Shown: positions 38,688 to 62,439 of the stretch, piece after piece
Position numbering within the stretch: position 1 is the first letter of the stretch
Layout of the letters: each line of letters opens with the position of its first letter
Origin: Dehalococcoidia bacterium
GTDB taxonomy: Bacteria > Chloroflexota > Dehalococcoidia > SHYB01
Reading direction: 5' to 3'
Length of the DNA: 64,000 nt
NCBI GenBank assembly: GCA_009693015.1
Contig: SHYB01000001.1
Span: 47,885-111,884, forward strand
Notes under the pieces: model-generated
The model's database searches: none
Told to the model about the DNA's origin: nothing
The model's input: only the letters and a program-made list of their open reading frames with translations
Program-made: the position numbers and the translations under genes

Positions 38688-38758
38688 AACAATGGGGAGG
38701 GCGCTTCGTTCATGTTGCAGGCGCCGGAAGATGGGCAACAGGCGCCGTAACCGCCCGG

Positions 38759-40210: not shown

Positions 40211-40237
40211 TGCAGAGCGTAGGGAGCGGGGCACGCG

Positions 40238-41131
40238 ATGCGGCGAGGTTATGCGGATACGCCCGAAGGGCAGGTGCATTACGCCGAAGAGGGCAGCGGG
40301 CCAGCGGTGCTGTTGCTGCACCACACGCCCCGCTCGTGGACGTTCTGGCGCCGCGTGATCCCGCTGCTCTCGCCGCGCCATCGCGTGGTGGCGATGGATA
40401 CGCTGGGCTTCGGCGCATCGGACGGGGCGAAGGCGGGGGCGAAGGCGCGGGACTACGCGGAGAACGTGGCGCATGTCATGGACGCGCTGGGCATCGAGCG
40501 GGCGCATGTGGCGGGGGCGATGACGGGGTCGCGCATCGCGATGGAGCTGGCGATCGGCTGGCCGGAGCGGGTGCAGTCGCTGACGGTGATGGGCTTCCCG
40601 CTATTTGATTCGCAGGCAGAGACGGACCGGCGCATGGCGGAGACGACGCGCGAGCACATGGGCGCGCCGGAGCCGGACGGGAGCCACGTGCTGAAGGTAT
40701 GGCGCTATGTGCTGGGAAATCTGGCGGTGCGGGATTTCGAGACGCCGTACGCGCCGGGGGTGTATGTGCCGGGGGCGGCGATGGAATCGCCCATCGCGCA
40801 ATTGACGGAAGCGGAGCAGGAGTACCTGCGGGACTGGATGGTGGATGAGTTGCGCGTGGGGGCACATTGGTGGAGCACGGCGGTGACAGTGTACAGCGAG
40901 GATGCGCGGCCGCGTTTGCCGCTGGTGCTGGCGCCGGTGCTGGCGCTGGGTTTGTGCGGGCGGGGGTTCCCCGCGTACCTGGGGGCGGAGCGCGCCGCCG
41001 AGGTGGCGAAGCTGGCGCCCAACGGCAGGACGATGAAGCTGGAGGGGGCGGATGCCGATTCGCGGGTGGCGACGTTCCACAGCAAGGAGCTGGCGGCGGC
41101 GATGCTGGTGTTCTGGAAGGGGCTGCGGTAG
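40238..41131 (+). CDS. alpha/beta hydrolase
   Basis: HHTPRS..GxxxG elbow region, fold pattern. Confidence 0.65.
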   Translation: MRRGYADTPEGQVHYAEEGSGPAVLLLHHTPRSWTFWRRVIPLLSPRHRVVAMDTLGFGASDGAKAGAKARDYAENVAHVMDALGIERAHVAGAMTGSRIAMELAIGWPERVQSLTVMGFPLFDSQAETDRRMAETTREHMGAPEPDGSHVLKVWRYVLGNLAVRDFETPYAPGVYVPGAAMESPIAQLTEAEQEYLRDWMVDELRVGAHWWSTAVTVYSEDARPRLPLVLAPVLALGLCGRGFPAYLGAERAAEVAKLAPNGRTMKLEGADADSRVATFHSKELAAAMLVFWKGLR

Positions 41132-41216
41132 TTGCTGGAGCAAGGGCATTTGAGCGGATGACCGGCAGGCCCACAAGTCATGGGTGGGTGGTGAGGTCTA
41201 GCGGGGGCTGGCGGCG

Positions 41217-42140
41217 CTACAGCACCGCGAGGGGGTTGACGGGACAGCCGGTGCCGCCTTCGATCTTGAGCGGGGCGATGGTGAGGAGGAACTCGTATCG
41301 GCCCGCGGCGGCGCAGGCGGCGGCCAGCGGCTCCAGTGCGGCGTTGTCTATCAGCGCGATGCCGTAGGCCCAGATCGCGCCGTGAACGGTGAACGGTACG
41401 CTGTAACCGTGGGGCAGGAGATCGAGCATGTCCCAGAGCAGCGCCGAGACGTCGTGGTCGCGCAAAAATGGGAGGCAGGAGGGGTGGAGGCCGGGGCGGG
41501 CGCGGCTCATGCCGTAGGCGCGGCCGGGGTTGGCCCGCTGCCAGGCGTCGCGGCCGCTGTAGACGCAAAGAGCATCGCCCGCGCGTACCGGCGTGCCTTG
41601 CGCCGCGGCGATCTCTTCCAGTTCCCAGCCGTGCACCGGCTCCTCCTGGGCGACGAACGGTTGTCCCCTGTGCCTGGGCACGTCCAACAGCACACCACGG
41701 GTAATGATGCCTTCATCCCCCCAGTGATGAACCGCGCCCCACTGCGCGCCATCGAACGTGATCTCCCGCTTGGCGTCGCGCCCGTTCCACATGCCGTCGC
41801 TGTCCCACATGTGGCACAGCGCGTCCAGGTGCGTGTTGGCCATGCCGTGGGTGTGCGAGCCGAAGTAATCGAGCGACGCGCCGGCGACGCCATTTGGTTG
41901 CGGACGCACGAACATGCCGTGCACCGGCGGGTGGAAGTTGTCCGGCGCGGGCGCCTTGGGGACGGTGCGCGACAGCGACACGACGCTGCCGGAGCGCACC
42001 AGGGCTGCCGCTTCGCGGCGCTTCTCCGGGGTGATGAGGTTGACCGCGCCGCGCTGATCGGCGTCGCCCCAGCGGCCCCAGTTGCGGCGCTTGAACAGGT
42101 AATCGTGGACTTTCTGATCTGTGGGGAGGGGGTGGGTCAT
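41217..42140 (-). CDS. cyclase family protein (kynurenine formamidase-like)
   Basis: HxGTHxDAxxH motif (GSHTHGMANTHLDALCH); start MTHPLP. Confidence 0.65.
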   Translation of the reverse strand: MTHPLPTDQKVHDYLFKRRNWGRWGDADQRGAVNLITPEKRREAAALVRSGSVVSLSRTVPKAPAPDNFHPPVHGMFVRPQPNGVAGASLDYFGSHTHGMANTHLDALCHMWDSDGMWNGRDAKREITFDGAQWGAVHHWGDEGIITRGVLLDVPRHRGQPFVAQEEPVHGWELEEIAAAQGTPVRAGDALCVYSGRDAWQRANPGRAYGMSRARPGLHPSCLPFLRDHDVSALLWDMLDLLPHGYSVPFTVHGAIWAYGIALIDNAALEPLAAACAAAGRYEFLLTIAPLKIEGGTGCPVNPLAVL

Positions 42141-42319
42141 GGGACGTGACTCCTGCGGTGCTACGGCGCGATTATAGCGCGGGCTGTGCCGTATGTGGTT
42201 GACAGGCCCAGTTGCTCCCACCCGACCCGGGAGGCTGGAGCGGCGAGGCGTTCCTCGTGGCCCTTTGCGCCAAATCTCCTCGCTGAGATAACAGGAAGGC
42301 GCTGAACGGGTGCGGCTGC

Positions 42320-43780
42320 CTACCTCACCCCCGTCGCCAGTGCGGCCTTGGCCGCCGCCTCCACGCGCGTGCCGTTGAAGAAGCTGGGGTTCATGCCGGC
42401 ATGCAACTGCACGATGTTGGTGTAGGAGAAGTCCTTGAAGTCCTGGGCGGTGAGCACGCCGCGCTCCAGCAGCTCGTAAGCCTCCTCCAGCACCTCGCGC
42501 ATGTCGGTCACGTCCCAGTGGCCGATGTCCGAGGAGAAGATGGCCCGCAGCCGCGCGCCGAAGGGGTTGACCTTGGTGTCGAACGCCCAGGCGTTGGTGG
42601 CGTCGTCGGCCTCGCAGCCGATGTAGAAGCGGGGCACGAAGAGGTCGCGTAATTCTTCGGCGCGGGTGGCGGCCATGTGGCGGAACTCGTCGGGGTGCTC
42701 AGGGCGAGGTTGCGGCTGATGCACCCATTTGCGCACTTCCCCCTCCAGGCGACGGTGCACGTCCTCGCCCTTCTCGTGCAGCAAGCGTTCCATGAGCGGC
42801 CTGTCCACGATCTCCGGATCAAGGTCGCGAATGGCCCTGCCGTTGCGCTTTTTCCAATGCGCGATGGTGTCGGCATAGAGCGAGCAGGCCCACGCCGCGC
42901 CGCCTTCCAGGAAGCCGAAGTTCAGCGTGGGGAAGCGCCGCGTGACGCCGCCCAGCCATAGCGATTTGCAGGTGGCCTCCGCCGACGATGCGAACGCGCC
43001 GATGTGGTTGTACATGTAGCTGGACGTGGAGCGCCGCGAGTTCTTGCCTATGTGCGCGCCGTGGAAGGTAGGGGCCACCTTGAGCTCCACGCACTTGGCC
43101 CACACGGGGTCGTAGTCGTGGGCGCTGTCCAGGCCGAACTTATCGGCCCAGGCCAGATCGCCGGTCATCTGCGGGTCTTCGCGCTGCACCCTGGGCACGG
43201 GGCGCAGCCATTCGTTGGGCATCTGCACCACCTTGAGCTTGAGCACGTTGACCACGTATTCCAGTTCGGCGATAGCCTCCTTGGGGTTGGCCATGGGGAT
43301 CATGGCGGCAGGCGTGAGGCGGCCGGCGTAGGGGCCGTAGAGATCGCGCACCATGAGGTTGAAGGCGCGGCACCCCTCCTGGCGAATCTCATCGTCGGGG
43401 TTCTGCATGAGGAACGCGCCCTCGCTGCCGTAGACGATGGAGAAGTCTATGCCGATCTCGTCGAGGCGTTCGTAGAGCAGGCGGGGGATGACGGCGGTGG
43501 CGCGGTCGAGGGTATTTTTGGCGGGGTGGAACCACCACGAGGTGACGGGGAGATCGGCGTCCACGCGCTGCGCCTGGGTGAGGGTGAGCATCTCCTGGCG
43601 GTAGCGCTTGGAGGCGGTGGAATCGAGAAAGCGCTGGGTGAGGCGCGACCCGCCCACCTGGCGCAGGTAATCGAAGAGCACGGGCGAGACTTCGATCATG
43701 TGCCCATCGCCGTCAATGATGGGGTGGCTCAGCTTGGCGCGGATCTGCTGCGAGTGGGTGGGCTTGGCGGTGGTGGTCAT
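42320..43780 (-). CDS. amidohydrolase-2 family protein, paralog 2 (long form)
   Basis: 486 aa; IDGDGHMIE N-terminal metal motif. Confidence 0.7.
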   Translation of the reverse strand: MTTTAKPTHSQQIRAKLSHPIIDGDGHMIEVSPVLFDYLRQVGGSRLTQRFLDSTASKRYRQEMLTLTQAQRVDADLPVTSWWFHPAKNTLDRATAVIPRLLYERLDEIGIDFSIVYGSEGAFLMQNPDDEIRQEGCRAFNLMVRDLYGPYAGRLTPAAMIPMANPKEAIAELEYVVNVLKLKVVQMPNEWLRPVPRVQREDPQMTGDLAWADKFGLDSAHDYDPVWAKCVELKVAPTFHGAHIGKNSRRSTSSYMYNHIGAFASSAEATCKSLWLGGVTRRFPTLNFGFLEGGAAWACSLYADTIAHWKKRNGRAIRDLDPEIVDRPLMERLLHEKGEDVHRRLEGEVRKWVHQPQPRPEHPDEFRHMAATRAEELRDLFVPRFYIGCEADDATNAWAFDTKVNPFGARLRAIFSSDIGHWDVTDMREVLEEAYELLERGVLTAQDFKDFSYTNIVQLHAGMNPSFFNGTRVEAAAKAALATGVR

Positions 43781-43816
43781 GGGTGTCCTTCGTTGGGCGA
43801 GATGCGGCGCGGCATG

Positions 43817-44170
43817 CTAGCGCGGGTAGATCTGCCGGTAGACGTTGGCTTCCCGCGTGGCGAATGCGCCGACGTCCTTGTTGAACGATTCGCGCAGCCG
43901 GGCGATATCGGGGCCGGCCATGGAGCGCTGCACGGCGGCAGCGTCGTCGTACTCGTACACCGCGAGGTAGCGATGCGACGCAGGAGCGGCGGCGCTGGGG
44001 TGCAGATCCGTGCCGGCGAAGGAGGACATGACCTCATAGCGCCGCGCCGTTTTGCAGCCCAGGAGGCGTTCCACGTCGGGGATGTGCACCTGCTCCATCC
44101 AGTGGTGGAACTTTTCATCATGGCCTGGCTGAACACTTGCGCGCACAATAATAAGGGCTGGGGTGGTCAT
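43817..44170 (-). CDS. small ferredoxin-fold protein (EthD/Dabb/ABM-like), tentative
   Basis: 117 aa; pattern resembles EthD/DUF4286; weak. Confidence 0.35.
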   Translation of the reverse strand: MTTPALIIVRASVQPGHDEKFHHWMEQVHIPDVERLLGCKTARRYEVMSSFAGTDLHPSAAAPASHRYLAVYEYDDAAAVQRSMAGPDIARLRESFNKDVGAFATREANVYRQIYPR

Positions 44171-44199
44171 GGTTTCTTCTCCTTATGCGGGGGGCTGCA

Positions 44200-45605
44200 T
44201 TACTTGAGCGGTATGATGCCGATGCCGTTCTGGAGACTGATTTCGGTGCTGTAGGGCTTGGAGCGGGCGGCGGAGCGCTCCAGCATTGTCGTTGCCGCGG
44301 GGCTGCCCGGCTCGGCGAGGAGGGCGCGCCCGCGTTCCGAGCGAGCGCCGGTGGACTGGTACTCCAGCGGGTAGATGCGTACTTCCTTGGGCTCGTGGTT
44401 ATCGTCGAACACCACCTGCTGCAGCACGCTGCCGCGCCCGAACTCATCGCGCCGCATGCCCACCACCGAGCCGCCGACGGCCTCCCCCTTGGCCCGCTCT
44501 TCGAGGAACTCCGCGGTGGTGCTGGCGGGGTCGAGTCCGTAGCGCATCTTGAGCTCCGGCGGGTTATGCCGGATGCTTTCATTCTGAAAGTAGAAGGGCG
44601 GGCACCCGTAGAGGATGACCTTGCCCTTGTAGACCTCCACGCCGCCGAGCCGCCCGCCGTGCAGGCCACGGCCACGTCCGCGCCGGCGTCAATGGCGCCG
44701 CGGGCGAAAGCCCGCACATGCACCTCATCCTGCTCGCGGCGCGCGCCCTGATCGTGCAGGGCGGCGACGACGAAATCGGCGGTGCGCCTCGCCTCGCGGA
44801 CCCACTTGAAGTTGCGCTGCAGGTCGGCCTCGTAGGGTTCGGTGGAAAAATCGAACGACTTGCCCAGGACGAACTTGCGTCCCATGAAGTGGAACTGCTT
44901 GGCGTTGTCCTGCTCGCAGCCCAGGATTGATTGGCTGACGAATGGCTCGGCGCGGCCCCCGCCGGCGCGGCGTCCCGCCTTGGCCTCCTCCCAGCCCAGC
45001 GCCTTGCTCATGCGCTTCAGCGCCCCGAAGGCTTCTTTATCCACGGTGTTGACCGCATCGTAGCGCAGCAGGTTGATGCCGGGCCGCGCCTTGAAAAACG
45101 CATCGGCGTCGCCGGGCATGACGCCGGTGGGCATTTGGAACGGCAGGTCGGCCTTGCCGCGCGGCCCCCAATCGCTCGCGGAGACCAGCGCCACGCGGCC
45201 CTTGTCCGTCTGGTAGTAGCCCGGCATGGTGGAGGTGGTGAGACTGGGGCCGATTCCGGCGTAGGCCAGCCCGCCGGCGTTGAGATACTTGATGGTGGTG
45301 GTGATGCCGTCTTCGGCGAAGTCGTGCACGTGGTTGTTGGCGGCATACACCAGGTTGATGCCCATCCACTTGAGCTCGGCGACGACGTGCGGCGGCGCGG
45401 CGAGGTAGGATGCGGCGCGCCCCCCGGCGACGTAGGCGGGGAACGGCTCGCCATTGTGGATGACGAACTCCAGGTTGGTCATGGCGCAGTCGGAGCCGCG
45501 CAGCAGCTGCACCAACTGGAGAAAGCGCGGGTCGGTGTACGCCGATGGCCGGTCCTGGAAGAAGCAATTGCCGGTGAGGGAAAGCGTGACTTGGCCGCTG
45601 GACAC
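44200..45605 (-). pseudogene. CapA/PgsA-family metallophosphatase gene with a single-nucleotide frameshift near 44667
   Basis: N-terminal 315 codons in one frame (track ORF 44118..45605 becomes low-complexity junk after ..GADVAVA); C-terminal 146 codons in another (44200..44640, ..HGGRLGGVEVYKGKVILYGC..); splice reconstructs GADVAVG-LHGG..VEVYKGK, matching family motif GADLVIGHHPH..YKGK. Confidence 0.5.
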
Positions 45606-45683
45606 AGGGACACCCCCCGCTGGAAAGAATGTGACTACCCACGCAGGATAGTACGTCCGTCAACAGGGGGGAAGCGGCGGGCC

Positions 45684-46598
45684 TTAGCGGCGCAACTTGG
45701 GCATAATCTCGCGGGCGATGATCTCCGGTATGGGCGCCGTGACATGCTCCGGCCCCGCGGGCCGCAGGATAAAGTGCGTGGCGCCCGCTTCGCGGAACTG
45801 CTGCATGCGCGCCAGGCATTGCTCCGGCGTGCCGATGATGGGGTAGCGGTGCACGATCTTGGAGAAGTCCTGGGCGTAGGTGTTCCCCAGCGCGCCCGCG
45901 GCATACTCCGCCGCCTTCTCGTACGTCTCGGCGATGGTCATAAAGGCGTAGATCGTCCGCTCGATTTTGGATGGGTCGCGGCCTGCCGCCGCCGCCATCT
46001 CCTCGATCTTGGCCCAGTCCTCGCGCCACATCTCCGGCGTGTACATATACGGCATCCAGCCATCGCCCACCAGCGCCGTGCGTTTGAGCGACCCTCGCCG
46101 CCCGCCCACCAGCACCGGCGGGTGCGGCTTCTGCACGGGGAACGGCTCCGTGGTCACATCGCTCATTTGCCAGAAGCGGCCCTGGAAGGTGACGTCGCGC
46201 TCCGTCCACAGTCGCTTCATCAGGCGGATGCTCTCCGTGGCCCGCGGCCCGCGTTCCTCCCGCGGCACGCCCATCGCTTCGAACTCCTTGGCGTACTCGC
46301 CTCCGATGCCGATGCCCAGCGAGGCGCGCCCGCCGGAAAGCACGTCCAGCGTGGCGACGGCCTTGGCGACGAGGATGGGGTGCTTCAGCGGCAGGAGGAG
46401 GATGGAGGTGCCCAGGCGTATGCGCGTGGTGACGGCGGCAACGGAGGCCAGAACCATGAGGGCGTCTGGGGTGCTGTGGCGCCACACCACATGCTCGCCG
46501 ATCCACAGCGAATCGAACCCCAGCGCCTCGGCGGCGCGCGCCTCTTGCGCCGATTGTGGCCCGCCGCGCAGCACCAGGCCGAACTGTATCTTGGACAT
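45684..46598 (-). CDS. LLM-class (luciferase-like) flavin/F420-dependent oxidoreductase
   Basis: Start MSKIQFGLVL typical of LLM; TIM-barrel pattern. Confidence 0.7.
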   Translation of the reverse strand: MSKIQFGLVLRGGPQSAQEARAAEALGFDSLWIGEHVVWRHSTPDALMVLASVAAVTTRIRLGTSILLLPLKHPILVAKAVATLDVLSGGRASLGIGIGGEYAKEFEAMGVPREERGPRATESIRLMKRLWTERDVTFQGRFWQMSDVTTEPFPVQKPHPPVLVGGRRGSLKRTALVGDGWMPYMYTPEMWREDWAKIEEMAAAAGRDPSKIERTIYAFMTIAETYEKAAEYAAGALGNTYAQDFSKIVHRYPIIGTPEQCLARMQQFREAGATHFILRPAGPEHVTAPIPEIIAREIMPKLRR

Positions 46599-46692
46599 CG
46601 CAACCCCCGGCGAGCGAAAGATAGCCGACAGAAGAGGGTTCATGGTACCATAACCCCGCTTTTTGGGGGAGAGCCATTCTGTGGGAGCGGCA

Positions 46693-47535
46693 ATGAAGAT
46701 CGGCGCGCACGTGTCGGCAGCGGGCAGTTTCGACAAGGCGATTGACCGCGCCGGGGAAATCGGCGCGGAGGCGGTGCAAATCTTCGTGTCCGGCCCCACG
46801 ACGTGGCGCATGCGCGTGCCCCTGCAGCCGGAGTGCGACGCGTTTAGGGAAAAGTCTAAGGCCATGGGCATCGCGCCGGCTTTTTTTCATGGCGTGTATC
46901 TCATCAACCTGGGGTCGCCCAACGCGGAGCTGGTGGCCAAGGGCGTGGAGTCGCTGATCAAGTACCAGGAGGCGGCGGCGCTGCTGGGCGCGGCGGGCAC
47001 GATCTTCCACGTGGGCAGCCACAAGGGCCAGGGGTTCGATGCCGTGCTGCCGCAGGTGGTGCGGGCGATGCACGCCGTGCTGGAGGGGATGCCCAAGGGC
47101 GTATCGCTGATCATCGAAAATAGCGCGGGCATGGGGCAGTCCATCGGCGCGAGCTTTGGGGAGATCGGCAGGATCGTCGCCGCGGTGGGCAGCGACCGGG
47201 TGCAGGTGTGCCTGGATACGCAGCACTGCTTCGCCAACGGCTACAACGTGGCGGTGAAGGACGGCCTGGACGCGGCGATGGAGGAGTTTGACCGCGAGAT
47301 CGGCCTGGGACGCCTCGCGGCGGTGCACGCCAACGATTCGAAGTGCGAACTCGAAGGCGGGCTTGACCGCCATGAGAACATCGGCGAGGGGCATATCGGG
47401 CGCAAGGGGTTCGAGGCGATCATGGCCCACCCCGCGCTGCAGGCGCCGGTCTTTCTCCTGGAGGTGCCGGGGTTTGAGGGCGGTGGGCCGGACAAACGCA
47501 ACGTGGATATCTTGAAGCAGATGCGAGGGCGCTAA
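46693..47535 (+). CDS. nfo: endonuclease IV (AP endonuclease family 2)
   Basis: MKIGAHVSAAG start; conserved H/E/D metal ligands. Confidence 0.85.
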   Translation: MKIGAHVSAAGSFDKAIDRAGEIGAEAVQIFVSGPTTWRMRVPLQPECDAFREKSKAMGIAPAFFHGVYLINLGSPNAELVAKGVESLIKYQEAAALLGAAGTIFHVGSHKGQGFDAVLPQVVRAMHAVLEGMPKGVSLIIENSAGMGQSIGASFGEIGRIVAAVGSDRVQVCLDTQHCFANGYNVAVKDGLDAAMEEFDREIGLGRLAAVHANDSKCELEGGLDRHENIGEGHIGRKGFEAIMAHPALQAPVFLLEVPGFEGGGPDKRNVDILKQMRGR

Positions 47536-48721: not shown

Positions 48722-49252
48722 CTAGCGCCAGCAGCCCTCAAGGAACGGCGCGTCGATCTCGCGCACGGCGTCCGCCACCTTGCGCAGCACTTCGCTGCCG
48801 CCGCCGAAGAGCGCCACCTCCATCACTATGCCGTTGTCCTTGACCGCTTGGATGGCGGAGGCGTAGTCCGTGTCGCCGCTGACCAGGATCACCACGTCGG
48901 CGTTGCGGCGGAAGCTGTGGATCACCATGTCCGTGCCGATGCGCACGTCAATGCCTTTTTCATAGGGCGGGACATCGGGCCAGCCGGGCTGGTACACCAG
49001 GCGGCCGGTGTGCACCTCAAAGTAGGGCAGGTTCTCCACGGCTTAGAGGAAACGCTGCTGGTCCTCGTATTTTTGCGGCTCGCGCGCGGGGTCGAACTCG
49101 GCGTTGTAGTAGTAGGCGCGGACGAGGCGTCTGCCTGCGACCAGGCGTTCGACGAACGCGTCCAGTTGCAGGGCGGTGCGCCCAAACCGCGAGCGCAGCG
49201 AGTGGTACAGGTTGCTGCCGTCAATGAACACCATCACGCGCTGGTCTGTCAT
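48722..49252 (-). pseudogene. NYN-domain (LabA/YacP-like) gene interrupted by an in-frame TAA at 49040-49042
   Basis: N-part ..MVFIDGSNLYHSL..QQRFL* continues in the same frame as AVENLPYFEVHTGRL..VSGDTDYASAIQ..; combined about 175 aa, matching a single NYN protein. Confidence 0.5.
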
Positions 49253-49289
49253 GGCAGCAATTTTAGCACCCTGAACGCGGCGCGCGTTG

Positions 49290-49829
49290 CTAGGCTGACG
49301 GAACCAGGCTAACGTCGTCCAGCCGGCGCACGCCCACGCTGCCGACGCGTGCCGCCAGCGTGGCGATCGTCTCATGCAGCGTGGGGTGCAGCACGCCGTC
49401 GGCGATGTCCGCCAGCGGTGCAAGGGCGAAGGCTCGCTCGGCGAGGCGCGGGTGCGGGATGGTCAGCGACGGCGTCTCTAGCGTCACGCCGTCGTACAGC
49501 AAGATGTCGATGTCGATGAGACGCGAGGCGTTTTGCGTGCGGCCGGTGCGGCCCATCGCCTGCTCGATTTCTTTGATGCGCTCGAGCAGGGCCAGCGGCA
49601 GCAGGGCAGTCGTCCCCAGGCACGCGGCGTTGAGGAAATCGGGCTGCGCCGCCATGCCCACCGGCACCGTCTCGTACACCGGCGACACGCGTTGGATGGC
49701 GACGTGCCCGCTCAGGCGGCGCAGCGCCTCCCCCAGGTTGGCGAGGCGGTCGCCCATGTTCGCGCCCAGGCCGAGATACACTGTTGCGTTCACTGTGTTC
49801 GCTGCCGCGCTCACCGTGGCCGCGTCCAC
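49290..49829 (-). CDS. folK: 2-amino-4-hydroxy-6-hydroxymethyldihydropteridine pyrophosphokinase
   Basis: VYLGLGANMGD start region; HPPK pattern; true start may be an internal non-ATG codon. Confidence 0.75.
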   Translation of the reverse strand: MDAATVSAAANTVNATVYLGLGANMGDRLANLGEALRRLSGHVAIQRVSPVYETVPVGMAAQPDFLNAACLGTTALLPLALLERIKEIEQAMGRTGRTQNASRLIDIDILLYDGVTLETPSLTIPHPRLAERAFALAPLADIADGVLHPTLHETIATLAARVGSVGVRRLDDVSLVPSA

Positions 49830-50650: not shown

Positions 50651-50839
50651 GCGACGCTCCGAAAGCATCGTATCATGCGCCATCCAGCCGCCATCGCGGG
50701 CGGTGTGCCATTCGGCGCGGGCTGCGTCAATTGGCGCTGTCTCTGATTGACCTTTCCGGAGCGCCCTTGCTACGATGGGGGCGTCGGCCACAGCGCGAGC
50801 GCCACGTTTACGCGGCCCGCCGGATACGGGGGAGTGCCC

Positions 50840-51565
50840 ATGACCACGCAGCACGGCAGCCAGGCCCAGCCCGGCAAGCAGAGCAGGCAGTTCGTCCGCT
50901 ACGTCTGCTACAAGGTGCAGCCGGAGTGGCGCCGCCTGCCCAAGGCGCAGCGCGATAGCTCGCGCGCCGAGTTCGCCGCCGTGGTGGATGAGATGTCCGA
51001 CGGCATGATGGTGCGCAGCTATTCGCTGGCGGGCACCCGCGGCGACGCCGATCTCATGCTGTGGGAGGTCTCGCCGCGGCTGGACGATATCCAGAACCTG
51101 GCGGTGCGCCTCTCCTCGACGGCGCTGGGGCGGTACATGGACACGCCGCACTCCTACCTGGCGATGACGCGGCGCTCCATCTACGTGGAGAAGCATGAGC
51201 ATGCCGGCCAGGAGGGCGCGCGGCTCAAGGTGCGCCCCGCGGGGGCCAAGTATCTCTTCGTCTACCCGTTTGTGAAGACGCGCGAGTGGTATCTGCTGCC
51301 CAAGGAAGAGCGGCAGCAGATCATGGACGTGCACATCGGCGTGGGGCACAAATATCCTGGCGTGCGCATCAATACCTCCTACTCCTTTGGCCTGGACGAT
51401 CAGGACTTCGTGGTGGCCTTTGAGGGCGACGACCCCGGCGAGTTCCTCGACCTGGTGATGGACCTGCGCGAGACGCAGTCGAGCAAGTACACCGTGCGCG
51501 ACACGCCGATCTTCACCGGCGTCTCCATGACGATCCAAGAGGCGCTCGCCACCCTGGGCGACTAG
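50840..51565 (+). CDS. hemQ: chlorite-dismutase-family protein (HemQ/ChdC coproheme decarboxylase-like)
   Basis: about 240 aa; family pattern; start MTTQHGS. Confidence 0.7.
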   Translation: MTTQHGSQAQPGKQSRQFVRYVCYKVQPEWRRLPKAQRDSSRAEFAAVVDEMSDGMMVRSYSLAGTRGDADLMLWEVSPRLDDIQNLAVRLSSTALGRYMDTPHSYLAMTRRSIYVEKHEHAGQEGARLKVRPAGAKYLFVYPFVKTREWYLLPKEERQQIMDVHIGVGHKYPGVRINTSYSFGLDDQDFVVAFEGDDPGEFLDLVMDLRETQSSKYTVRDTPIFTGVSMTIQEALATLGD

Positions 51566-51574
51566 GAGAGAACG

Positions 51575-51928
51575 ATGGCAAAGAAAGTAACCTTCTACTG
51601 GAAAGCTACCTGAACCACCTGCCGCAAGGCGAAGGCGTGGCTTTCGCAACAGGGCGTCCAGTTTTCCGAGCGCGAGATGGCGAAGCAACCGCTCAGCGCC
51701 GATGAGATCAAGCGCCTCTCCGGCGGCGACCCCGTGTCGCTGATTGACCGCAAGAAGCCGTCGTTCCGCGCGCTGGGCCTGGGCGACAGGCCCTTCACCG
51801 CTACTGAAGCGATCAAGCTGATGCAGGCGAACCCCAGCATCATCCGCCGTCCCATCTTTGAGATCGACGGCCAAGTGGTCATTGCCCCCAAGGAAGCGGA
51901 CCTGGCCGCCAAGCTGGGCAAGCGCTAA
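51575..51928 (+). CDS. ArsC/Spx-family thioredoxin-fold protein with in-frame TGA at 51611-51613 (candidate selenocysteine at the CxxC position)
   Basis: GGAGAG RBS, ATG 51575; MAKKVTFYWKAT-TGA-TTCRKAKAWL.. aligns to family motif CxxCRKA; downstream track ORF 51677..51928 is in the same frame; total 117 aa. Confidence 0.5.
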
Positions 51929-51930
51929 TC

Positions 51931-52290
51931 GTGGACTGCGGCAGCCCGCCGCCGGCCGCGTTGCTGCGGGGCATCGCGGAGTTCAACGACGGCGAGTATT
52001 TTGCCTGCCACGAGACGCTGGAGGCGCTGTGGCGTGCCGAGCGCGGCCCGGTGCGCCGCCTCTATCAGGGCGTGTTGCAAGTGGCGGTGGCGCTGCACCA
52101 CCTGGAGCGCGGCAATCTCCCCGGCGCACGATCTATTCTTGCCAAGGCGGAGAAGCATCTCGCGGCATGCCCCGCGCCGTGCCTGGGCGTGGACGTGGCG
52201 GCGTTACGGGAGGACACGCGACTGCTGGCGGAGTCGCTGGCGGGGAGCGATGCGCCTGCTGACGTGAGCATGCGCGTGCGGACGGTGTAG
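51931..52290 (+). CDS. DUF309-domain protein
   Basis: GTG start immediately after the previous stop; FNDGEYFACHETLEALW motif. Confidence 0.55.
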   Translation: MDCGSPPPAALLRGIAEFNDGEYFACHETLEALWRAERGPVRRLYQGVLQVAVALHHLERGNLPGARSILAKAEKHLAACPAPCLGVDVAALREDTRLLAESLAGSDAPADVSMRVRTV

Positions 52291-52301: not shown

Positions 52302-52454
52302 CTAGCGGATCGCCAGGCAACCCTCGATAGCTTCATAGAGGTTCTGCAACAGCTCCTCGAACATCTCCCCCTGGGTGGCGCAACCGGGTATGCCGGGAAC
52401 CTCGGCCCAATAGCCGCCTTCGTCGGCGGTGTGGACGACAACCTTGATTTTCAT
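52302..52454 (-). CDS. HicB-like (UPF0150) small protein, orphan, not in the ORF track
   Basis: 50 aa: MKIKVVVHTADEGGYWAEVPGIPGCATQGEMFEELLQNLYEAIEGCLAIR; family core motif; no HicA partner adjacent. Confidence 0.5.
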   Translation of the reverse strand: MKIKVVVHTADEGGYWAEVPGIPGCATQGEMFEELLQNLYEAIEGCLAIR

Positions 52455-52547
52455 GGCGGAACCTCGCACGGATTATAGCATTGCGAGCTTGTAGAGCAGG
52501 CAGCGTGTCCCCGCTGCCTGCAGCGCCTGGTGTACACTGGCGTCACC

Positions 52548-53990
52548 ATGAAAGACCTCCTCCTGCGCGCGCTCGATACCGCCCGATTGCGCGGGGCGAC
52601 GTATGCCGATGTGCGCTACGTCCACATCACCGTGCAGACCATCGCCGTGCGCGACCAGCGCGTGGAAGCGGTCACCTCGCATGAGTCCAGCGGCATCGGC
52701 GTGCGCGTCATCGCCAACGGCGGCTGGGGCTTCGCCGCGTCGTCGCGACTCGACGCGAACGAGGCCGACATGCTCGCCGCCAGCGCCGTGCGCATCGCCA
52801 GGGCGTCGTCGTCGGTGCTACGCGAGCCGGTGCGCCTGGGCGATGCGATGCGCGTGGAGGGCGTGTACGTGACGCCGGTGGTGCGCGACCCGTTTCTCGT
52901 GCCGCTAGAAGAGAAGGTGGGCGTGCTGCTCGCCGCCACGCGAGAGATGCGGCGTGTCAAGCAAATCGCGGTGGCGCAGGCGGGCACGGAGATCGTGCGC
53001 ACAGAGAAGATTTTCGCCTCTAGCGAGGGCAGCTACACTGACCAGACGCTATATGAGACGGGCTGCGGCATGGAGGCCACCGCCGTAGGAGAGGGGGAAG
53101 TCCAGAACCGCTCCTACCCCAGCAGCATCGGCAGGCACCAGGGCACGGAAGGCTGGGAGTTCGCCGAGCGCTACGACCTGCCGGGAAACGCCCCGCGCAT
53201 CGCCGAGGAGGCGGCGGCGCTTCTCACGGCGAAGCAGTGCCCCGCGGGCGAGTTCACCGTGATCCTCGATGGCTCGCAGACGGCGCTGCAAGTGCACGAG
53301 TCGTGCGGGCACCCCGTGGAACTCGACCGTGTCTTCGGCTCGGAGGCGGCGTATGCCGGCACGAGCTTTCTCACCACAGACAAGCTGGGCAGCTTCCGCT
53401 ACGGGTCGGACAAGGTCAGTATCGTTGCCGACGCAACGATACTCGGCGGCCTGGGCACGTTCGGCTACGACGACGAGGGCGTGCCCGCGCAGCGCGGCGA
53501 CATCGTGCGCGACGGTATGTTTGTGGGCTACCTGACGTCCCGCGAGACGGCGGCGCGGCTGGGCCAGCGCTCCAGCGGCGCGGCGCGGGCCAGCGGGTGG
53601 GACCGCATACCGCTCATTCGCATGACCAACGTGAACCTGGAGCCTGGGCCGTGGCGCCTGCCTGAGCTCATCGCGGACACGGACCGCGGCATCTATATGC
53701 AGACCAACCGCTCGTGGAGCATTGACGACAGGCGGCTCAACTTCCAGTTCGGCACGGAGATCGCCTGGGAGATCGCCGGCGGCAAGCTGGGGGCGATGCT
53801 GAAGAACGCCACCTACACTGGCATGACGCCGCGCTTCTGGGCATCGTGCGACGCGGTATGCGGCGGCCCTGACTGGACGGTATGGGGCGTGCCGAACTGC
53901 GGCAAGGGCCAGCCCGAGCAGGCGGGGCATGTGGGCCACGGGGCCGCGCCCGCCCGCTTCCGCAACGTGCAGGTGGGGCGGCTGCGTTAG
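52548..53990 (+). CDS. tldD: TldD-family metalloprotease (peptidase U62)
   Basis: Start MKDLLLRALD; HESCGH motif. Confidence 0.8.
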   Translation: MKDLLLRALDTARLRGATYADVRYVHITVQTIAVRDQRVEAVTSHESSGIGVRVIANGGWGFAASSRLDANEADMLAASAVRIARASSSVLREPVRLGDAMRVEGVYVTPVVRDPFLVPLEEKVGVLLAATREMRRVKQIAVAQAGTEIVRTEKIFASSEGSYTDQTLYETGCGMEATAVGEGEVQNRSYPSSIGRHQGTEGWEFAERYDLPGNAPRIAEEAAALLTAKQCPAGEFTVILDGSQTALQVHESCGHPVELDRVFGSEAAYAGTSFLTTDKLGSFRYGSDKVSIVADATILGGLGTFGYDDEGVPAQRGDIVRDGMFVGYLTSRETAARLGQRSSGAARASGWDRIPLIRMTNVNLEPGPWRLPELIADTDRGIYMQTNRSWSIDDRRLNFQFGTEIAWEIAGGKLGAMLKNATYTGMTPRFWASCDAVCGGPDWTVWGVPNCGKGQPEQAGHVGHGAAPARFRNVQVGRLR

Positions 53991-60458: not shown

Positions 60459-61072
60459 CGCCGCTCTTTCGTAAAACTCCGCCGCCGCCGCGCGAGCTAT
60501 GGCTCATCGTGGGCCTGGGCAACCCCGGCTCGCGCTACGCCCGCAGCCGCCACAACGCCGGATACATGTGCCTGGAGCGCTGGGCGGCGCGCCATCACCT
60601 CACGGAGGAGCGGCGCAAGGAGTACGCCATCATTGTGGAGGGCGCCGTGCGCCTGGGCGGCCGCGACGTGCGCGTGCTGCTGGCCAAGGCCCGCTCCTTC
60701 ATGAACGAAAGTGGCGGCCCCGTGGCCGAGCTCGTGCGACGCTATCATGTGCCGCCCGCGCGCCTGATCGTTGCCTACGACGATCTCGATCTGCCTCTGG
60801 GCAAAGTGCGCCTGCGGGAGCGTGGCTCCGCGGGCGGACATAACGGCATGAAGTCAATCATCGAGCGCCTGGGCACGCAGGGGTTCCCCCGCCTGCGCAT
60901 CGGCATCGGCCGCCCCAATGAGCCGCGCGCCGGGGCTATCGGCCACGTGCTGGGCAATTTCAACCTGGAAGAGCAGCCGGCAATAGATGCGGCGCTGGAC
61001 GCGGCCTGTGATGCGCTGGACTGCACGCTGGGTGAAGGCCTCGCCGCCGCGATGAACCGCTTCAACGGGTAG
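60455..61072 (+). CDS. pth: peptidyl-tRNA hydrolase
   Basis: LIVGLGNPG..RHNAG motif; 13-residue N-terminal extension relative to typical Pth. Confidence 0.85.
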   Translation: MTPLFRKTPPPPRELWLIVGLGNPGSRYARSRHNAGYMCLERWAARHHLTEERRKEYAIIVEGAVRLGGRDVRVLLAKARSFMNESGGPVAELVRRYHVPPARLIVAYDDLDLPLGKVRLRERGSAGGHNGMKSIIERLGTQGFPRLRIGIGRPNEPRAGAIGHVLGNFNLEEQPAIDAALDAACDALDCTLGEGLAAAMNRFNG

Positions 61073-61151: not shown

Positions 61152-62321
61152 CTAGCGCGCTCCCGCGGCTTGGGGCGCCGGCAGCTTGTACAGCGCGGCG
61201 CAGTTGCCGTGCATCACGCGGTCGCGCTCCTCGTCGCTCACGCCTTCCAGCAGTTGCGCCAGCGCGGCGCGGGAGCTGGGCCAGGTCGTGGTGCTATTGG
61301 GGTAATGGGATGCCCACATCAGCGCGTTCTTGTTGATGTCCGCCCGCGAAAGGATGGCGGTGCGCTCATTGTGGATGGTGGCCTTGACGCTCTGGCGCAC
61401 GTGCTCGCCGGGCCACTGGCGCAGGTGCTTGAGCCCCACGAACTGGGCGTAGCGGTAGTTCCAGTCCATGATCTCGCCGCACAGCGGCAGCCAGCCGCAG
61501 CCGTTCTCGATCATCGACACCTGGAACTTGGGGAAGCGCTCCATGACGCCGGTGAGGATGAGGAAGGCCATGTTGGCGTTCTTGGAGGAGGCGTAGTTGA
61601 CCCACTTGGCCTCCCACGCCGGCTCGTAGGCGCGCACCCCCTTGGCGTTGGGGCCAATGTAGCGCTGCGGCGCCGTGGGGGTGCGGTCGTTGCCTACGGG
61701 GCCGCCGCGTATCAGGTTCAGCGCCATGCCCGCATCGGTGAGGACGCCCCAGAAGGCGTCGTCGGCGGGCACCGGCTTATCGGCCCCCCCGGGCCACCCG
61801 GAGAAGATCACGCCGCGAAAACCCGCCTTGGCGGCGCGCTGGGCCTCCGCTACGGCGTCATCCAGCCCGGTGGCGGGCATGATCGCCATGGGGTGCAGGC
61901 GCTTGCCGTTGCCCGATTGCGCCCACTCCCACACGCCGTCGTTATACGCCTTCACGCACGCCAGTTGCAGCTCGCGATCCCGGATGGTGCGAAGGTCCAG
62001 ACCGAACGTGGGGAAGATGCACGCGGCGTCCGTCTCGTCCACGTCCATGTCCTTGAGACGCTCCTTGGCATCATACCCGCCTTTGCGGATGTTGGCGTAG
62101 GACGTGCCGTGCGTCTTGAAATCCAGCGGGCTCATGCCTGCAACGGCATCCAGGCCCAGGGGGCGCAGCCACTGCCCGCCCTCAAAGGCCCAGCCTTCGC
62201 CGCCGTCCGGCATGCTCACCACCTTGGGGGCCAGGTCGCGCAGCTTGGCCGGTACGCGGCTGCTCCACAGGTCCTTCGGCTCGATAATGTACTGTCCCGC
62301 GTCCACGACCATTGGTTTCAT
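61152..62321 (-). CDS. amidohydrolase-2 family protein, paralog 3
   Basis: Start MKPMVVDAGQYIIEP; upstream 61 aa of track ORF is low-complexity and rejected. Confidence 0.7.
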   Translation of the reverse strand: MKPMVVDAGQYIIEPKDLWSSRVPAKLRDLAPKVVSMPDGGEGWAFEGGQWLRPLGLDAVAGMSPLDFKTHGTSYANIRKGGYDAKERLKDMDVDETDAACIFPTFGLDLRTIRDRELQLACVKAYNDGVWEWAQSGNGKRLHPMAIMPATGLDDAVAEAQRAAKAGFRGVIFSGWPGGADKPVPADDAFWGVLTDAGMALNLIRGGPVGNDRTPTAPQRYIGPNAKGVRAYEPAWEAKWVNYASSKNANMAFLILTGVMERFPKFQVSMIENGCGWLPLCGEIMDWNYRYAQFVGLKHLRQWPGEHVRQSVKATIHNERTAILSRADINKNALMWASHYPNSTTTWPSSRAALAQLLEGVSDEERDRVMHGNCAALYKLPAPQAAGAR

Positions 62322-62439
62322 CTGCTGCTCCTCACGCGCACGCTCAATGTATTTTCCGCAGCTAGGGCGCGCCGCACCATCCCAGGGCCTGGGGGCGATG
62401 CCCTGGCAGGCCGGAGGAAATTGCCGATGCCGTCCCCGC

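What the first reader, a model, noticed from the sequence alone, without database searches (positions are those of the whole stretch)
51575..51928. Candidate selenoprotein: ArsC/Spx-family gene with UGA at the redox-active Cys position
Seen in sequence: a GGAGAG-ATG start at 51575 reads MAKKVTFYWKAT, then TGA (51611-51613), then TTCRKAKAWLSQQGVQF.. in the same frame through to 51928, giving 117 aa, the normal family length. Established knowledge: in Spx/ArsC/YffB proteins this position is the first Cys of the CxxC(RKA) motif, so a Sec-for-Cys replacement at a redox-active site is the classic selenoprotein signature. Seen in sequence: a GC-rich imperfect stem-loop starts 2 nt after the TGA (about 51615-51640) and could serve as a bacterial SECIS. 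Inference: the gene sits in an apparent hemQ - arsC-like - DUF309 string, suggesting a redox context.
Basis: partly seen in the sequence, partly recalled or inferred. Interest (0 to 1): 0.85.

Follow-up and report, generated by a model that had tools for sequence, protein, structure and literature searches.

The report
Selenocysteine gene in ArsC/Spx family
A small redox-protein gene next to a heme-synthesis gene in a Dehalococcoidia bacterium very probably uses its internal TGA "stop" to insert selenocysteine; it is a new, so far mis-annotated branch of a selenoprotein type known since 2005.

Summary
Window 51575-51928 (+) is a 117-codon ArsC/Spx-family ORF (PF03960) with an in-frame TGA at 51611-51613. 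That codon aligns with the first Cys of the CxxC motif (Cys10 of Spx).

It is not a sequencing error, a pseudogene or a reassigned codon:
- Two independent assemblies of the same organism carry the same TGA.
- All 14 distinct orthologs (61-91% aa identity) have TGA at this codon. Each has a ribosome-binding site and a conserved N-terminal peptide upstream.
- One ortholog and 28/28 distant homologs have Cys at this position.
- TGA is a normal stop elsewhere in the window, and it ends three of the orthologs themselves.

An 8-bp hairpin with loop GUG (51629-51647) lies 23 nt after the UGA and fits the published bacterial SECIS model in 13 of 14 orthologs. Its arms freeze rare synonymous codons. 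Covariation is weak.

The Sec machinery was not found in the 64 kb, and the rest of the genome could not be searched.

The gene always sits between hemQ and a DUF309 gene. ArsC-like UxxC/UxxS selenoproteins are already catalogued, but this branch is at most 39% identical to them, fits no curated model and is called as a truncated hypothetical protein in databases.

Verdict: real, and a new member of a known kind.

The parts
51565..51570 (+). Shine-Dalgarno-like GGAGAG, 4 nt before the ATG; it overlaps the last base of the hemQ stop codon
   Evidence: Read directly. All 14 orthologs have a GGAG/GGAGG-type motif (GGAG, GGAGG, GGGAGG; GAGG in L005, GGGGGA in L025) at the same distance before the start codon that precedes the TGA.
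51575..51928 (+). Selenoprotein gene: 117 codons including Sec13; ArsC/Spx-family thioredoxin-fold protein with a U13-T-T-C16 motif; stop TAA at 51926-51928
   Evidence: PF03960, 51.3 bits; best solved relatives are Spx proteins, E 1e-14, residues 5-111 aligned; orthologs. In public collections it is annotated only as an 83-aa fragment from 51677 (MSQ24755.1).
51611..51613 (+). In-frame TGA, read as selenocysteine (residue 13)
   Evidence: TGA at this codon in 14/14 distinct orthologs. Identical in independent assemblies L029 and L030. Aligns with Cys in P0002 and in 28/28 full-length distant homologs, and with Cys10 of Spx.
51620..51622 (+). TGC, Cys16: the presumed resolving cysteine of the UxxC motif
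   Evidence: Conserved in all 14 Sec forms. It is Ser in the one Cys-form ortholog. It aligns with Cys13 of Spx.
51629..51647 (+). Apical SECIS-like hairpin: 8-bp stem GCGAAGGC/GCUUUCGC with loop GUG (51637-51639), 23 nt after the UGA
   Evidence: -9.8 kcal/mol, G then U at the first loop positions, all four constraints of the bacterial SECIS model met. Synonymous sites in the arms are frozen. Only 27 of 5000 synonymous resamples do as well.
51612..51664 (+). Whole predicted structure around the hairpin: lower helix 51620-51623 with 51653-51656, outer helix 51612-51615 with 51661-51664
   Evidence: Consensus fold of 14 orthologs, 95% of cells paired against 32-46% when partners are slid. The lower helices vary only by G-U/A-U changes, so they are weakly supported.
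50837..51565 (+). hemQ-like gene (Chlor_dismutase family, 242 aa); its stop lies 9 nt before the selenoprotein start
   Evidence: Pfam PF06778, 8.9e-61. It is immediately upstream in 13/13 loci that have upstream flank.
51931..52290 (+). DUF309 gene (119 aa, GTG start 2 nt after the selenoprotein stop)
   Evidence: Pfam PF03745, 2.2e-24. Found immediately downstream in 10 loci; L022 has about 570 nt of downstream flank with no DUF309 hit.
52530..53990 (+). tldD/pmbA-family gene, next conserved gene of the string
   Evidence: Gene tables. tblastn hits in L001, L006, L020 and L021.

Best explanation
The gene at 51575-51928 encodes a genuine selenoprotein.

How it is translated. Ribosomes start at the ATG at 51575. 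At UGA 51611-51613 the mRNA hairpin 23 nt downstream (51629-51647, loop GUG) is inferred to recruit SelB-GTP-Sec-tRNA(Sec). Selenocysteine then becomes residue 13 instead of termination.

What the product is. It is a 117-residue thioredoxin-fold protein of the ArsC/Spx/YffB superfamily, closest to the Spx/MgsR branch. Its active site is U13-T-T-C16, at the N-terminus of helix 1. By analogy with CxxC proteins of this fold, it is inferred to cycle between a selenol/thiol form and a selenenylsulfide.

Where it acts. It is packed tightly between hemQ (coproheme decarboxylase type) and a DUF309 gene, probably in one operon. I therefore infer that it acts as a redox partner or redox sensor in that context, but this last step is weakly supported.

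Shown: the conserved recoded UGA, coding sequence on both sides, the Cys/Sec correspondence, a hairpin compliant with the SECIS model and constrained at synonymous sites, the fold and the synteny. Inferred: actual Sec insertion, the catalytic cycle and the physiological partner.
For: 1. Not an error. L029 and L030, Logan assemblies of runs SRR8561391 and SRR8561390, contain the same organism's locus with the identical TGA. L030 differs at 2 of 2108 bases.

2. Conservation. There are 14 distinct orthologs at 61-91% aa identity, from ENA, NCBI, JGI and Logan assemblies, and all have TGA at the same codon.
- The 8 codons before the TGA keep the peptide [VI][TN]FY[WH][KR]x[TS] while varying synonymously.
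- Every ortholog has a Shine-Dalgarno motif before the upstream start.
- The internal starts used by gene callers are not conserved: Met35 of the window is Leu in 12 of 14 orthologs.

3. Cys correspondence. Ortholog P0002 has Cys at this position, as do 28/28 full-length distant homologs. It aligns with Cys10 of Spx.

4. Site-specific recoding.
- This is the only such TGA in the 64 kb.
- TGA ends 6 ordinary genes in the window.
- TGA is the terminal stop of orthologs L005, L018 and L026, which also carry the internal TGA.

5. SECIS.
- 13 of 14 hairpins meet the four constraints quoted in PMC13188914: loop 3-9 nt, stem 4-16 bp, G in the first two loop positions, 16-37 nt spacing, energy at or below -7.5 kcal/mol.
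- All loops start with G followed by U or G.
- L022 reaches a compliant hairpin with a different sequence shifted by 3 nt, and L024 has a compensatory A-U to G-C change.
- Arm codons are frozen: Leu CTT in 12/14 although CTT is 5% of Leu codons in the window; Ser TCG 13/13; Ala GCG 13/14. Codon homogeneity is 0.76-1.0 against a median of about 0.43 elsewhere (Mann-Whitney p = 0.0015).
- Only 27 of 5000 synonymous resamples of the same peptide give an equally good compliant hairpin.
- The Cys-form ortholog's hairpin has loop AAAG and fails the G rule.

6. Family and fold. PF03960. The AlphaFold model of the Cys ortholog has pLDDT 92, with the Cys at the start of helix 14-26. Best structural matches are Spx, YffB and ArsC-like proteins, TM 0.78-0.87.

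7. Precedent. ArsC-like selenoproteins with Sec at this position are catalogued (PMC1088965, PMC2398784, PMC13188914). Dehalococcoidia include very selenoprotein-rich genomes (PMC13326102). The window's 83-aa fragment is identical to MSQ24755.1 from a Dehalococcoidia MAG.
Against: - No selA, selB, selD or tRNA-Sec in the window or in any fetched flank. The rest of the genome could not be searched, so the Sec-decoding trait of this organism is not shown.
- No second selenoprotein gene in the window or flanks.
- Statistical covariation in the hairpin is weak: one compensatory pair, and 149 of 500 shuffles reach the observed score. The stem is kept mostly by sequence conservation inside a conserved peptide (KAKAxLSQ).
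- Whole-region folding energy is unremarkable for the window.
- The Cys-form ortholog also has a hairpin here, so part of the pairing potential comes from the peptide itself.
- No Rfam family matches.
- There is no experimental evidence of selenium incorporation.
- The link to hemQ rests on gene order only.
Confidence: 0.87

Rival explanations
1. UGA at this site is recoded, but not to selenocysteine. Possible routes are cysteine delivered by a non-canonical tRNA-Cys with a UCA anticodon through SelB or EF-Tu, or near-cognate read-through (for example Trp).
For: The comparative evidence (conserved UGA, hairpin, Cys in homologs) shows recoding but does not identify the inserted residue. The Sec machinery was not seen. 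From my own knowledge, UGA-decoding tRNA-Cys variants that use SelB have been reported in a few bacteria.
Against: The hairpin follows the SelB-type SECIS model. The position is a redox-active Cys site, which is the usual place for Sec. Related ArsC-like families are accepted selenoproteins (PMC2398784, PMC13188914). A Trp at a CxxC nucleophile would destroy the motif, which is otherwise invariant.
Confidence: 0.06
2. The gene is a decaying pseudogene, or only the 83-94 aa C-terminal fragment called by gene finders is made. The TGA would then be a true stop after a 12-residue leader.
For: All public gene calls are such fragments. The window has another gene with an in-frame stop (NYN, TAA at 49045-49043).
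Against: - The same stop sits at the same codon in 14 diverged orthologs, and no other lesions are present.
- The N-terminal peptide and UxxC motif are under purifying selection with synonymous variation.
- A conserved ribosome-binding site precedes the upstream ATG.
- The internal start codons differ between orthologs or are absent.
- A fragment would lack strand 1 and the active-site helix of the fold.
Confidence: 0.04
3. Sequencing or assembly error: the true codon is TGC or TGT.
For: A single base change would give Cys. The window is from a metagenome-assembled genome.
Against: The identical TGA is present in two independent assemblies of other runs and in 13 other orthologs from different samples and pipelines.
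Confidence: 0.01
4. Genome-wide reassignment of UGA to a sense codon (Gly or Trp), as in some uncultivated lineages.
For: TGA is under-used as a stop here: 6 of 46 ORFs.
Against: - Family-verified genes (squalene-hopene cyclase, DXP synthase, ABC transporter genes) end at TGA with normal lengths.
- No other in-frame TGA occurs in coding sequence in the 64 kb.
- Three orthologs end in TGA.
Confidence: 0.005

Closest known systems
ArsC-like / 'arsenate reductase-like' bacterial selenoproteins: Sargasso Sea UxxS family (PMC1088965); GOS 'Arsenate reductase 1 (UxxS)' and 'Arsenate reductase 2 (UxxC, cd03032)' (PMC2398784); NF041106 ArsC_rel_Se_1 (PMC13188914)
   Same: - Same superfamily (PF03960/COG1393).
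- Sec replaces the same N-terminal nucleophilic Cys.
- SECIS hairpin directly downstream in the coding region.
- Two GOS 'Arsenate reductase 2' reads even share the motif T-U-T/S-x-C-R-K-A.
   Different: - Identity is 20-39% to the six GOS reads and four deep-Sep reference sequences compared; the best matches (31-39%) are two GOS 'Arsenate reductase 2' reads and the deep-Sep 'Arsenate reductase' sequence, against at least 61% within this orthologous group.
- It scores 24.3 bits on NF041106 (cut-off 85) and 33.3 on TIGR00014 (cut-off 106).
- It has a fixed hemQ-X-DUF309 context that I found in no paper.
- It is not annotated as a selenoprotein in the public protein collections searched.
Spx/MgsR redox-sensing RNA-polymerase-binding regulators of Firmicutes (TIGR01617; PDB 1Z3E, 3L78, 7F75)
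   Same: - Best sequence and structure matches.
- The motif x-C-T-S/T-C-R-K-A-K/R-A-W-L is almost identical.
- The RRPI motif is conserved.
- U13 and C16 align with the Cys10-Cys13 redox switch.
   Different: - Sec in place of Cys10.
- 117 residues against about 131: the C-terminal tail is missing, and there is a 3-residue deletion in the segment that aligns with Spx residues 46-48, just before Gly52.
- The window protein is below the TIGR01617 cut-off (65.8 against 75.05).
- The phylum is different (Chloroflexota).
- Binding to the RNA polymerase alpha subunit is untested.
YffB and ArsC-family reductases of unknown function (PDB 1RW1, 3RDW; NF008107)
   Same: Same length class and fold. These give the highest TM-scores to the model (0.84-0.87).
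   Different: Sequence match is weak (28.4 bits against a cut-off of 121). The active-site motif differs.
Plasmid R773/E. coli glutaredoxin-coupled arsenate reductase ArsC (TIGR00014; PDB 1I9D)
   Same: Same fold, with the nucleophile at the same position.
   Different: - 33 bits against a cut-off of 106.
- It has a UxxC motif, whereas ArsC has a single Cys.
- No ars genes are nearby.
- Arsenate reduction is therefore not the expected activity.

Membership tests
Bacterial selenoprotein gene (SelB/SECIS-dependent UGA recoding) | In-frame UGA conserved at the same codon in orthologs, with coding conservation on both sides | tested here: met
   14/14 distinct orthologs. The upstream peptide is conserved with synonymous variation, and a ribosome-binding site precedes the upstream start.
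Bacterial selenoprotein gene (SelB/SECIS-dependent UGA recoding) | Cys-containing homologs with Cys aligned to the UGA | tested here: met
   P0002 (59-61% identical) and 28/28 full-length distant homologs have Cys at this position. Spx Cys10 aligns with it.
Bacterial selenoprotein gene (SelB/SECIS-dependent UGA recoding) | Hairpin downstream of the UGA that meets the bacterial SECIS model (loop 3-9 nt, upper stem 4-16 bp, G in the first two loop positions, 16-37 nt spacing, energy at or below -7.5 kcal/mol; PMC13188914) | tested here: met
   Window: 8 bp, loop GUG, 23 nt spacing, -9.8 kcal/mol. 13 of 14 orthologs comply on the apical hairpin alone; L023 is at -6.7. The hairpin is constrained at synonymous sites. 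Covariation by itself is not significant.
Bacterial selenoprotein gene (SelB/SECIS-dependent UGA recoding) | selA, selB, selD and tRNA-Sec in the same genome | not testable with these tools
   Absent from the 64-kb window and from all fetched flanks. The remainder of the MAG could not be read. Only indirect support: Dehalococcoidia with 46-49 selenoproteins are reported (PMC13326102).
Bacterial selenoprotein gene (SelB/SECIS-dependent UGA recoding) | Selenium shown in the protein (75Se labelling or mass spectrometry) | not testable with these tools
   This needs an experiment.
ArsC/Spx/YffB superfamily (Pfam PF03960) | Score above the Pfam gathering threshold, and the ArsC-type thioredoxin fold | tested here: met
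   51.3 bits against 24. The model of the Cys ortholog has pLDDT 92. Top PDB matches are Spx, YffB and ArsC-like proteins, TM 0.78-0.87.
Spx/MgsR family (NCBIfam TIGR01617) | Score at or above the curated cut-off of 75.05 bits | tested here: inconclusive
   The window protein scores 65.8 bits, below the cut-off. It is the top family for all 15 members, and the best member reaches E 6.3e-22, which is probably near or above the cut-off.
Spx/MgsR family (NCBIfam TIGR01617) | Binding to the C-terminal domain of the RNA polymerase alpha subunit and transcriptional control | not testable with these tools
   No test was possible. The protein lacks the C-terminal tail of Spx: alignments end near Spx residue 112 of 131.
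ArsC family (seleno)protein NF041106 (ArsC_rel_Se_1) | Score at or above the curated cut-off of 85 bits | tested here: not met
   24.3 bits. The best of 15 members reaches E 4.2e-08. Identity to the reference MDE3003982.1 is 25%.
Glutaredoxin-dependent arsenate reductase ArsC (TIGR00014) | Score at or above the curated cut-off of 106 bits | tested here: not met
   33.3 bits. Identity to the UxxS selenoprotein MBT3519430.1 is 27%.
GOS 'Arsenate reductase 2 (UxxC)' selenoprotein group (PMC2398784) | UxxC motif in a cd03032 (ArsC_Spx)-like protein | tested here: inconclusive
   The motif and the Spx-like affinity fit. Two reads of that mixed group share UTTCRKA/USACRKA, but identity is only 33-39%. 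That makes it the same kind but not the same orthologous group.

The most novel reading that the evidence does not exclude
This hemQ-linked protein is not a general oxidoreductase but has one of two specific roles. It could be a Spx-type redox sensor that binds RNA polymerase through a selenenylsulfide switch, which would be a selenocysteine-based transcription regulator outside Firmicutes. Or it could be a dedicated redox partner of coproheme decarboxylase HemQ together with DUF309, which would be the first selenoprotein tied to heme biosynthesis. The evidence does not exclude either: Spx is the nearest characterised relative, and the hemQ-X-DUF309 order is kept in every locus with readable flank except L022, which lacks a detectable DUF309 downstream.
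Probability: 0.12. Interest if true: 0.65.

Novelty: new member of a known kind. Interest (0 to 1): 0.35.

Why it matters
There are three practical points.

1. Annotation. Every public gene call for this orthologous group is an N-terminally truncated "hypothetical protein" that lacks its active site. This includes the GenBank entries MSQ24755.1 and MBM4405466.1. No NCBIfam model covers the group. A curated model with the Sec position would repair the annotation across Dehalococcoidia/Chloroflexota metagenomes.

2. Biology. The strict hemQ - selenoprotein - DUF309 (- tldD) arrangement gives a testable functional lead for two uncharacterised partners: DUF309 and an Spx-like protein outside Firmicutes. 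It hints at a redox step connected with the H2O2-using coproheme decarboxylase.

3. Evolution. The group adds a nearly all-Sec branch with a single Cys (CxxS) member. That is a useful case for studying Sec/Cys exchange and how a SECIS is accommodated inside a strongly conserved peptide.

It does not change what is known about selenocysteine decoding.

Tried and rejected
- Rfam (gathering thresholds on the whole window, permissive on 51400-52000) found nothing relevant. As far as I know, bacterial SECIS elements of this kind have no curated model.
- Plain folding statistics did not discriminate. The z-score was -0.14 against dinucleotide shuffles, and whole-region MFE against synonymous resamples was unremarkable for the window, though z was -2.3 to -3.2 for five orthologs. 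I replaced this with a model-specific hairpin test and a synonymous-site test.
- The covariation test on 14 orthologs was not significant: 1 compensatory pair, 149/500 shuffles.
- The single genome-contig scan with the protein returned only distant Firmicutes Spx genes and two other distant hits, so no complete genome of the lineage was obtained. The metagenome scan gave 7 orthologous loci.
- Search for the Sec machinery: ARAGORN on the window and 14 loci, and Pfam on 30 large ORFs covering all SelA/SelB/SelD-sized genes of the window. Nothing was found.
- Scan for further in-frame TGA genes in the window and flanks: only the target and ordinary gene junctions. One further hit, at 60856-60854 (-), lies in a frame with antisense-like composition and was not pursued.
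I modelled the Cys ortholog P0002 instead. The fold search does not separate Spx from YffB or ArsC.
- Literature searches for DUF309 and for coproheme decarboxylase together with ArsC gave no functional link. BSepDB has no supplementary files held as text, and its text and the deep-Sep text and supplements I searched do not mention this subfamily or the MAG.
- Considered and rejected: sequencing error, pseudogene and genome-wide UGA reassignment (see rival explanations).
Full report
**Observation**

- GGAGAG lies at 51565-51570 and ATG at 51575.
- Twelve codons follow (MAKKVTFYWKAT), then TGA at 51611-51613.
- The same frame continues with TTCRKAKAWLSQQGVQF... to TAA at 51926-51928, which gives 117 codons.

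With the TGA read as Cys, the product matches Pfam ArsC (PF03960, 51.3 bits, cut-off 24) and Glutaredoxin. The gene upstream (50837-51565) is a Chlor_dismutase/HemQ-family gene and the gene downstream (51931-52290) is DUF309. Spacing is tight: 9 nt before the gene and 2 nt after it. No terminator-like site lies in between, and one promoter-like site lies before hemQ.

A composition-based scan found no other TGA in the 64 kb with coding-like sequence on both sides in a normally composed ORF.

**Is it an error, a pseudogene or a different genetic code?**

The 83-aa fragment that gene callers start at 51677 is identical to GenBank MSQ24755.1, [quoted passage not shown], which lies on a 121.7-kb MAG contig.

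Not an error. The same organism was assembled independently from two other sequencing runs (L029 from SRR8561391, L030 from SRR8561390). Both carry the identical TGA and flanks, and L030 differs from the window at 2 of 2108 bases.

Conserved in relatives. A protein search returned almost only N-terminally truncated calls of 70-94 aa. I read the DNA upstream of each of them, and of seven further metagenomic loci. This gave 14 distinct orthologs at 61-91% amino-acid identity. Every one has TGA at the same codon.

Not a truncated gene or pseudogene.
- The eight codons before the TGA keep the peptide [VI][TN]FY[WH][KR]x[TS] while their third positions vary.
- Every ortholog has a GGAG/GGAGG-type Shine-Dalgarno motif before the upstream start.
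- The internal start codons used by gene callers are not conserved: Met35 of the window is Leu in 12 of 14 orthologs.

Not a reassigned codon.
- TGA ends six ordinary ORFs in the window, including squalene-hopene cyclase, DXP synthase and two ABC-transporter genes.
- Three orthologs (L005, L018, L026) end in TGA while also containing the internal TGA.

The recoding is therefore site-specific.

**Cys/Sec correspondence**
- One member of the orthologous group, P0002 (59-61% identical), is full length and has Cys at the position, in a C-D-T-S motif.
- In an alignment with 28 full-length distant homologs (26-35% identity), taken from a search of 1.84 billion representatives, the position is Cys in 28 of 28. 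The second motif position is Cys in 20 of 28.
- The best solved relatives are Spx proteins (3L78, 1Z3E, 7F75; E 1e-14 for the single sequence and 2e-20 for the profile). U13 and C16 align with the Cys10-x-x-Cys13 redox switch of Spx inside the nearly identical motif CTSCRKA(R/K)AWL.

**The SECIS candidate**

The hairpin.
- An 8-bp stem GCGAAGGC/GCUUUCGC with loop GUG lies at 51629-51647, 23 nt after the UGA.
- A 4-bp lower helix and a possible outer helix flank it.

Fit to the published model. The published bacterial SECIS model requires four things (PMC13188914):
- a 3-9 nt apical loop on a 4-16 bp stem;
- G in one of the first two loop positions, usually followed by G or U;
- 16-37 nt between the UGA and the loop;
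- a folding energy of -7.5 kcal/mol or lower.

The window meets all four, and so do 13 of the 14 orthologs on the apical hairpin alone. L023 reaches only -6.7 kcal/mol. Every loop begins with G followed by U or G.

Conservation and covariation.
- The structure is kept in 95% of cells, against 32-46% when the partners are slid.
- Formal covariation is weak. There is a single compensatory change (A-U to G-C in L024), and the score is reached by 149 of 500 shuffles.
- L022 solves the problem differently. It has a 7-bp hairpin of different sequence, shifted 3 nt upstream, and it still complies with the model.

Peptide or RNA? The stem lies inside the conserved peptide KAKAxLSQ, so I asked whether the peptide alone explains it. 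It does not.
- The arm codons are frozen at unusual choices. Leu is CTT in 12 of 14 orthologs, although CTT is 5% of Leu codons in the window's genes. Ser is TCG in 13 of 13 and Ala is GCG in 13 of 14.
- Codon homogeneity at the arm codons is 0.76-1.0. The median is about 0.43 at 32 other conserved four- or six-fold codons of the same gene (one-sided Mann-Whitney p = 0.0015).
- Only 27 of 5000 synonymous resamples of the window's peptide give an equally good compliant hairpin.

Caveats.
- The Cys-form ortholog also has a hairpin here, so the peptide does contribute pairing potential. Its loop is AAAG, which fails the guanosine rule.
- Whole-region folding energy is not unusual for this G+C-rich sequence.
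- Rfam has no match.

**What could not be shown**

The window contains no tRNA. It has no SelA-, SelB- or SelD-like protein among the 30 large ORFs scanned and no second selenoprotein gene. The flanks of related loci contain none either.

The only scan of reference genomes returned distant Firmicutes Spx genes, not this lineage. The Sec-decoding trait of the organism therefore remains inferred. It is plausible: published catalogues list Dehalococcoidia genomes with 46-49 selenoproteins (PMC13326102).

**What the protein is**

NCBIfam placement.

| Model | Score, window protein | Cut-off |
|---|---|---|
| TIGR01617, Spx/MgsR | 65.8 bits | 75.05 |
| TIGR00014, arsenate reductase | 33.3 bits | 106 |
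| NF008107, YffB-type reductase | 28.4 bits | 121 |
| NF041106, ArsC_rel_Se_1 (curated selenoprotein model) | 24.3 bits | 85 |

The group is nearest the Spx/MgsR model. That model is the top family for all 15 members, and the best member reaches E 6.3e-22.

Fold. An AlphaFold model of the Cys ortholog is confident (pLDDT 92) and has the ArsC/Spx/YffB fold. The Cys/Sec residue sits at the N-terminus of helix 14-26, straight after strand 5-9. That is the standard position of the nucleophile in thioredoxin-fold redox proteins. Foldseek finds Spx, YffB and ArsC-like structures at TM 0.78-0.87 and does not separate them.

Differences from Spx. The protein lacks the C-terminal tail and has a 3-residue deletion in the segment that aligns with Spx residues 46-48, just before Gly52.

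Most likely chemistry. I infer a selenol/thiol to selenenylsulfide cycle between U13 and C16.

Context.
- hemQ is immediately upstream in 13 of 13 loci that have upstream flank.
- DUF309 was found immediately downstream in 10 loci. L022 has about 570 nt of downstream flank with no DUF309 hit.
- A tldD-family gene follows where the sequence extends far enough.
- No ars genes are nearby.

The order suggests a role coupled to the H2O2-using coproheme decarboxylase step, or a sensor role. I rate any specific partner as weakly supported, and I found no paper linking these families.

**Comparison with what is known**

ArsC-like selenoproteins with Sec at this very position were first reported from the Sargasso Sea (UxxS, 14 sequences; PMC1088965). 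GOS then listed "Arsenate reductase 1 (UxxS)" and "Arsenate reductase 2 (UxxC, cd03032)" (PMC2398784). [quoted passage not shown]

Sequences in the GOS and deep-Sep supplements let me compare directly.

| Known selenoprotein sequence | Identity to the window protein |
|---|---|
| Two GOS reads with UTTCRKA/USACRKA | 33-39% |
| deep-Sep "Arsenate reductase" with UTTCQRA | 31% |
| NF041106-type and UxxS representatives from the deep-Sep supplement | 25-27% |

The thing is therefore the same kind: an ArsC/Spx-superfamily selenoprotein with Sec at the first CxxC position and a coding-region SECIS. It is a separate orthologous group. That group is almost entirely Sec-containing, it is confined in my sample to Chloroflexota/Dehalococcoidia-type contigs, it has its own conserved gene context, and it is not recognised by current annotation.

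**Verdict**

- Confidence that this is a genuine Sec-encoding gene with a functional SECIS is about 0.87. What remains uncertain is the unseen Sec machinery and the identity of the inserted residue.
- Novelty: new member of a known kind.
- Interest is moderate to low for a specialist (0.35). The value lies in fixing a systematic mis-annotation and in the hemQ/DUF309 functional lead.

Noticed in passing
whole window; also L001, L005, L006, L020, L021: TGA is strongly under-used as a stop codon for a 66% G+C genome. Of 46 coding-like ORFs, 24 end in TAG, 16 in TAA and 6 in TGA, although the trinucleotide TGA is 2.4 times commoner than TAG in the sequence. Related loci show the same TAG preference (28 TAG, 9 TGA, 6 TAA). 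It is unclear whether this relates to Sec usage or to release-factor properties.
   Followed up: partly
window 48722-49423 (-), stop at 49045-49043: An NYN-domain gene is interrupted by an in-frame TAA (…QQRFL*AVENLPYFEV…), with both halves matching the NYN profile. Two independent ENA contigs of the same population (sample ERZ1305449) also have the gene called in two pieces separated by one codon. The stop is therefore real in the population: a pseudogene, a split gene or a read-through site.
   Followed up: partly
window 52302-52469 (-): A short HicB-like antitoxin gene sits alone between the DUF309 gene and tldD. The close relative L006 has a full hicA-hicB pair at this spot, and more distant orthologous loci (L001, L002, L020) have nothing there. 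This looks like a toxin-antitoxin cassette that inserted into the string and then lost the toxin.
   Followed up: partly
L008 145-492 (protein P0002): The only Cys-form member of the orthologous group has C-D-T-S: it also lost the second Cys. It still has a 7-bp hairpin after the Cys codon, but with loop AAAG. It may be a recent Sec-to-Cys conversion with a decaying SECIS. It comes from the same sequencing run (SRR8561390) as one assembly of the window's organism.
   Followed up: partly
proteins P0023, P0027, P0047, P0065, P0071: Several more distant ArsC/Spx-like representatives are also called as truncated proteins that begin just after the CxxC region. They may be further unannotated Sec-containing branches of the superfamily.
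   Followed up: no
window 60856-60854 (-): The composition scan flagged a second in-frame TGA between two high-GC3 stretches. The downstream piece (60497-60853) has the GC1 of about 0.86 that is typical of an antisense shadow frame, so it is probably not a gene.
   Followed up: no
L027 264-959: In this contig the hemQ gene upstream of the selenoprotein gene is called in two pieces (131 and 80 aa). That suggests a frameshift or stop in hemQ, or an assembly error.
   Followed up: no
window 38591-46886 and 61152-63609: There are several Amidohydro_2 genes (38591-40210, 42320-43816, 61152-62591, 62440-63609) and a luciferase-like monooxygenase (45684-46886). There is also an isoprenoid/hopanoid cluster at 19853-29469 (IspG, squalene-hopene cyclase, radical-SAM/DUF3463, polyprenyl synthase, DXS). 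From my own knowledge, this enzyme mix is reminiscent of SAR202-type Dehalococcoidia.
   Followed up: no
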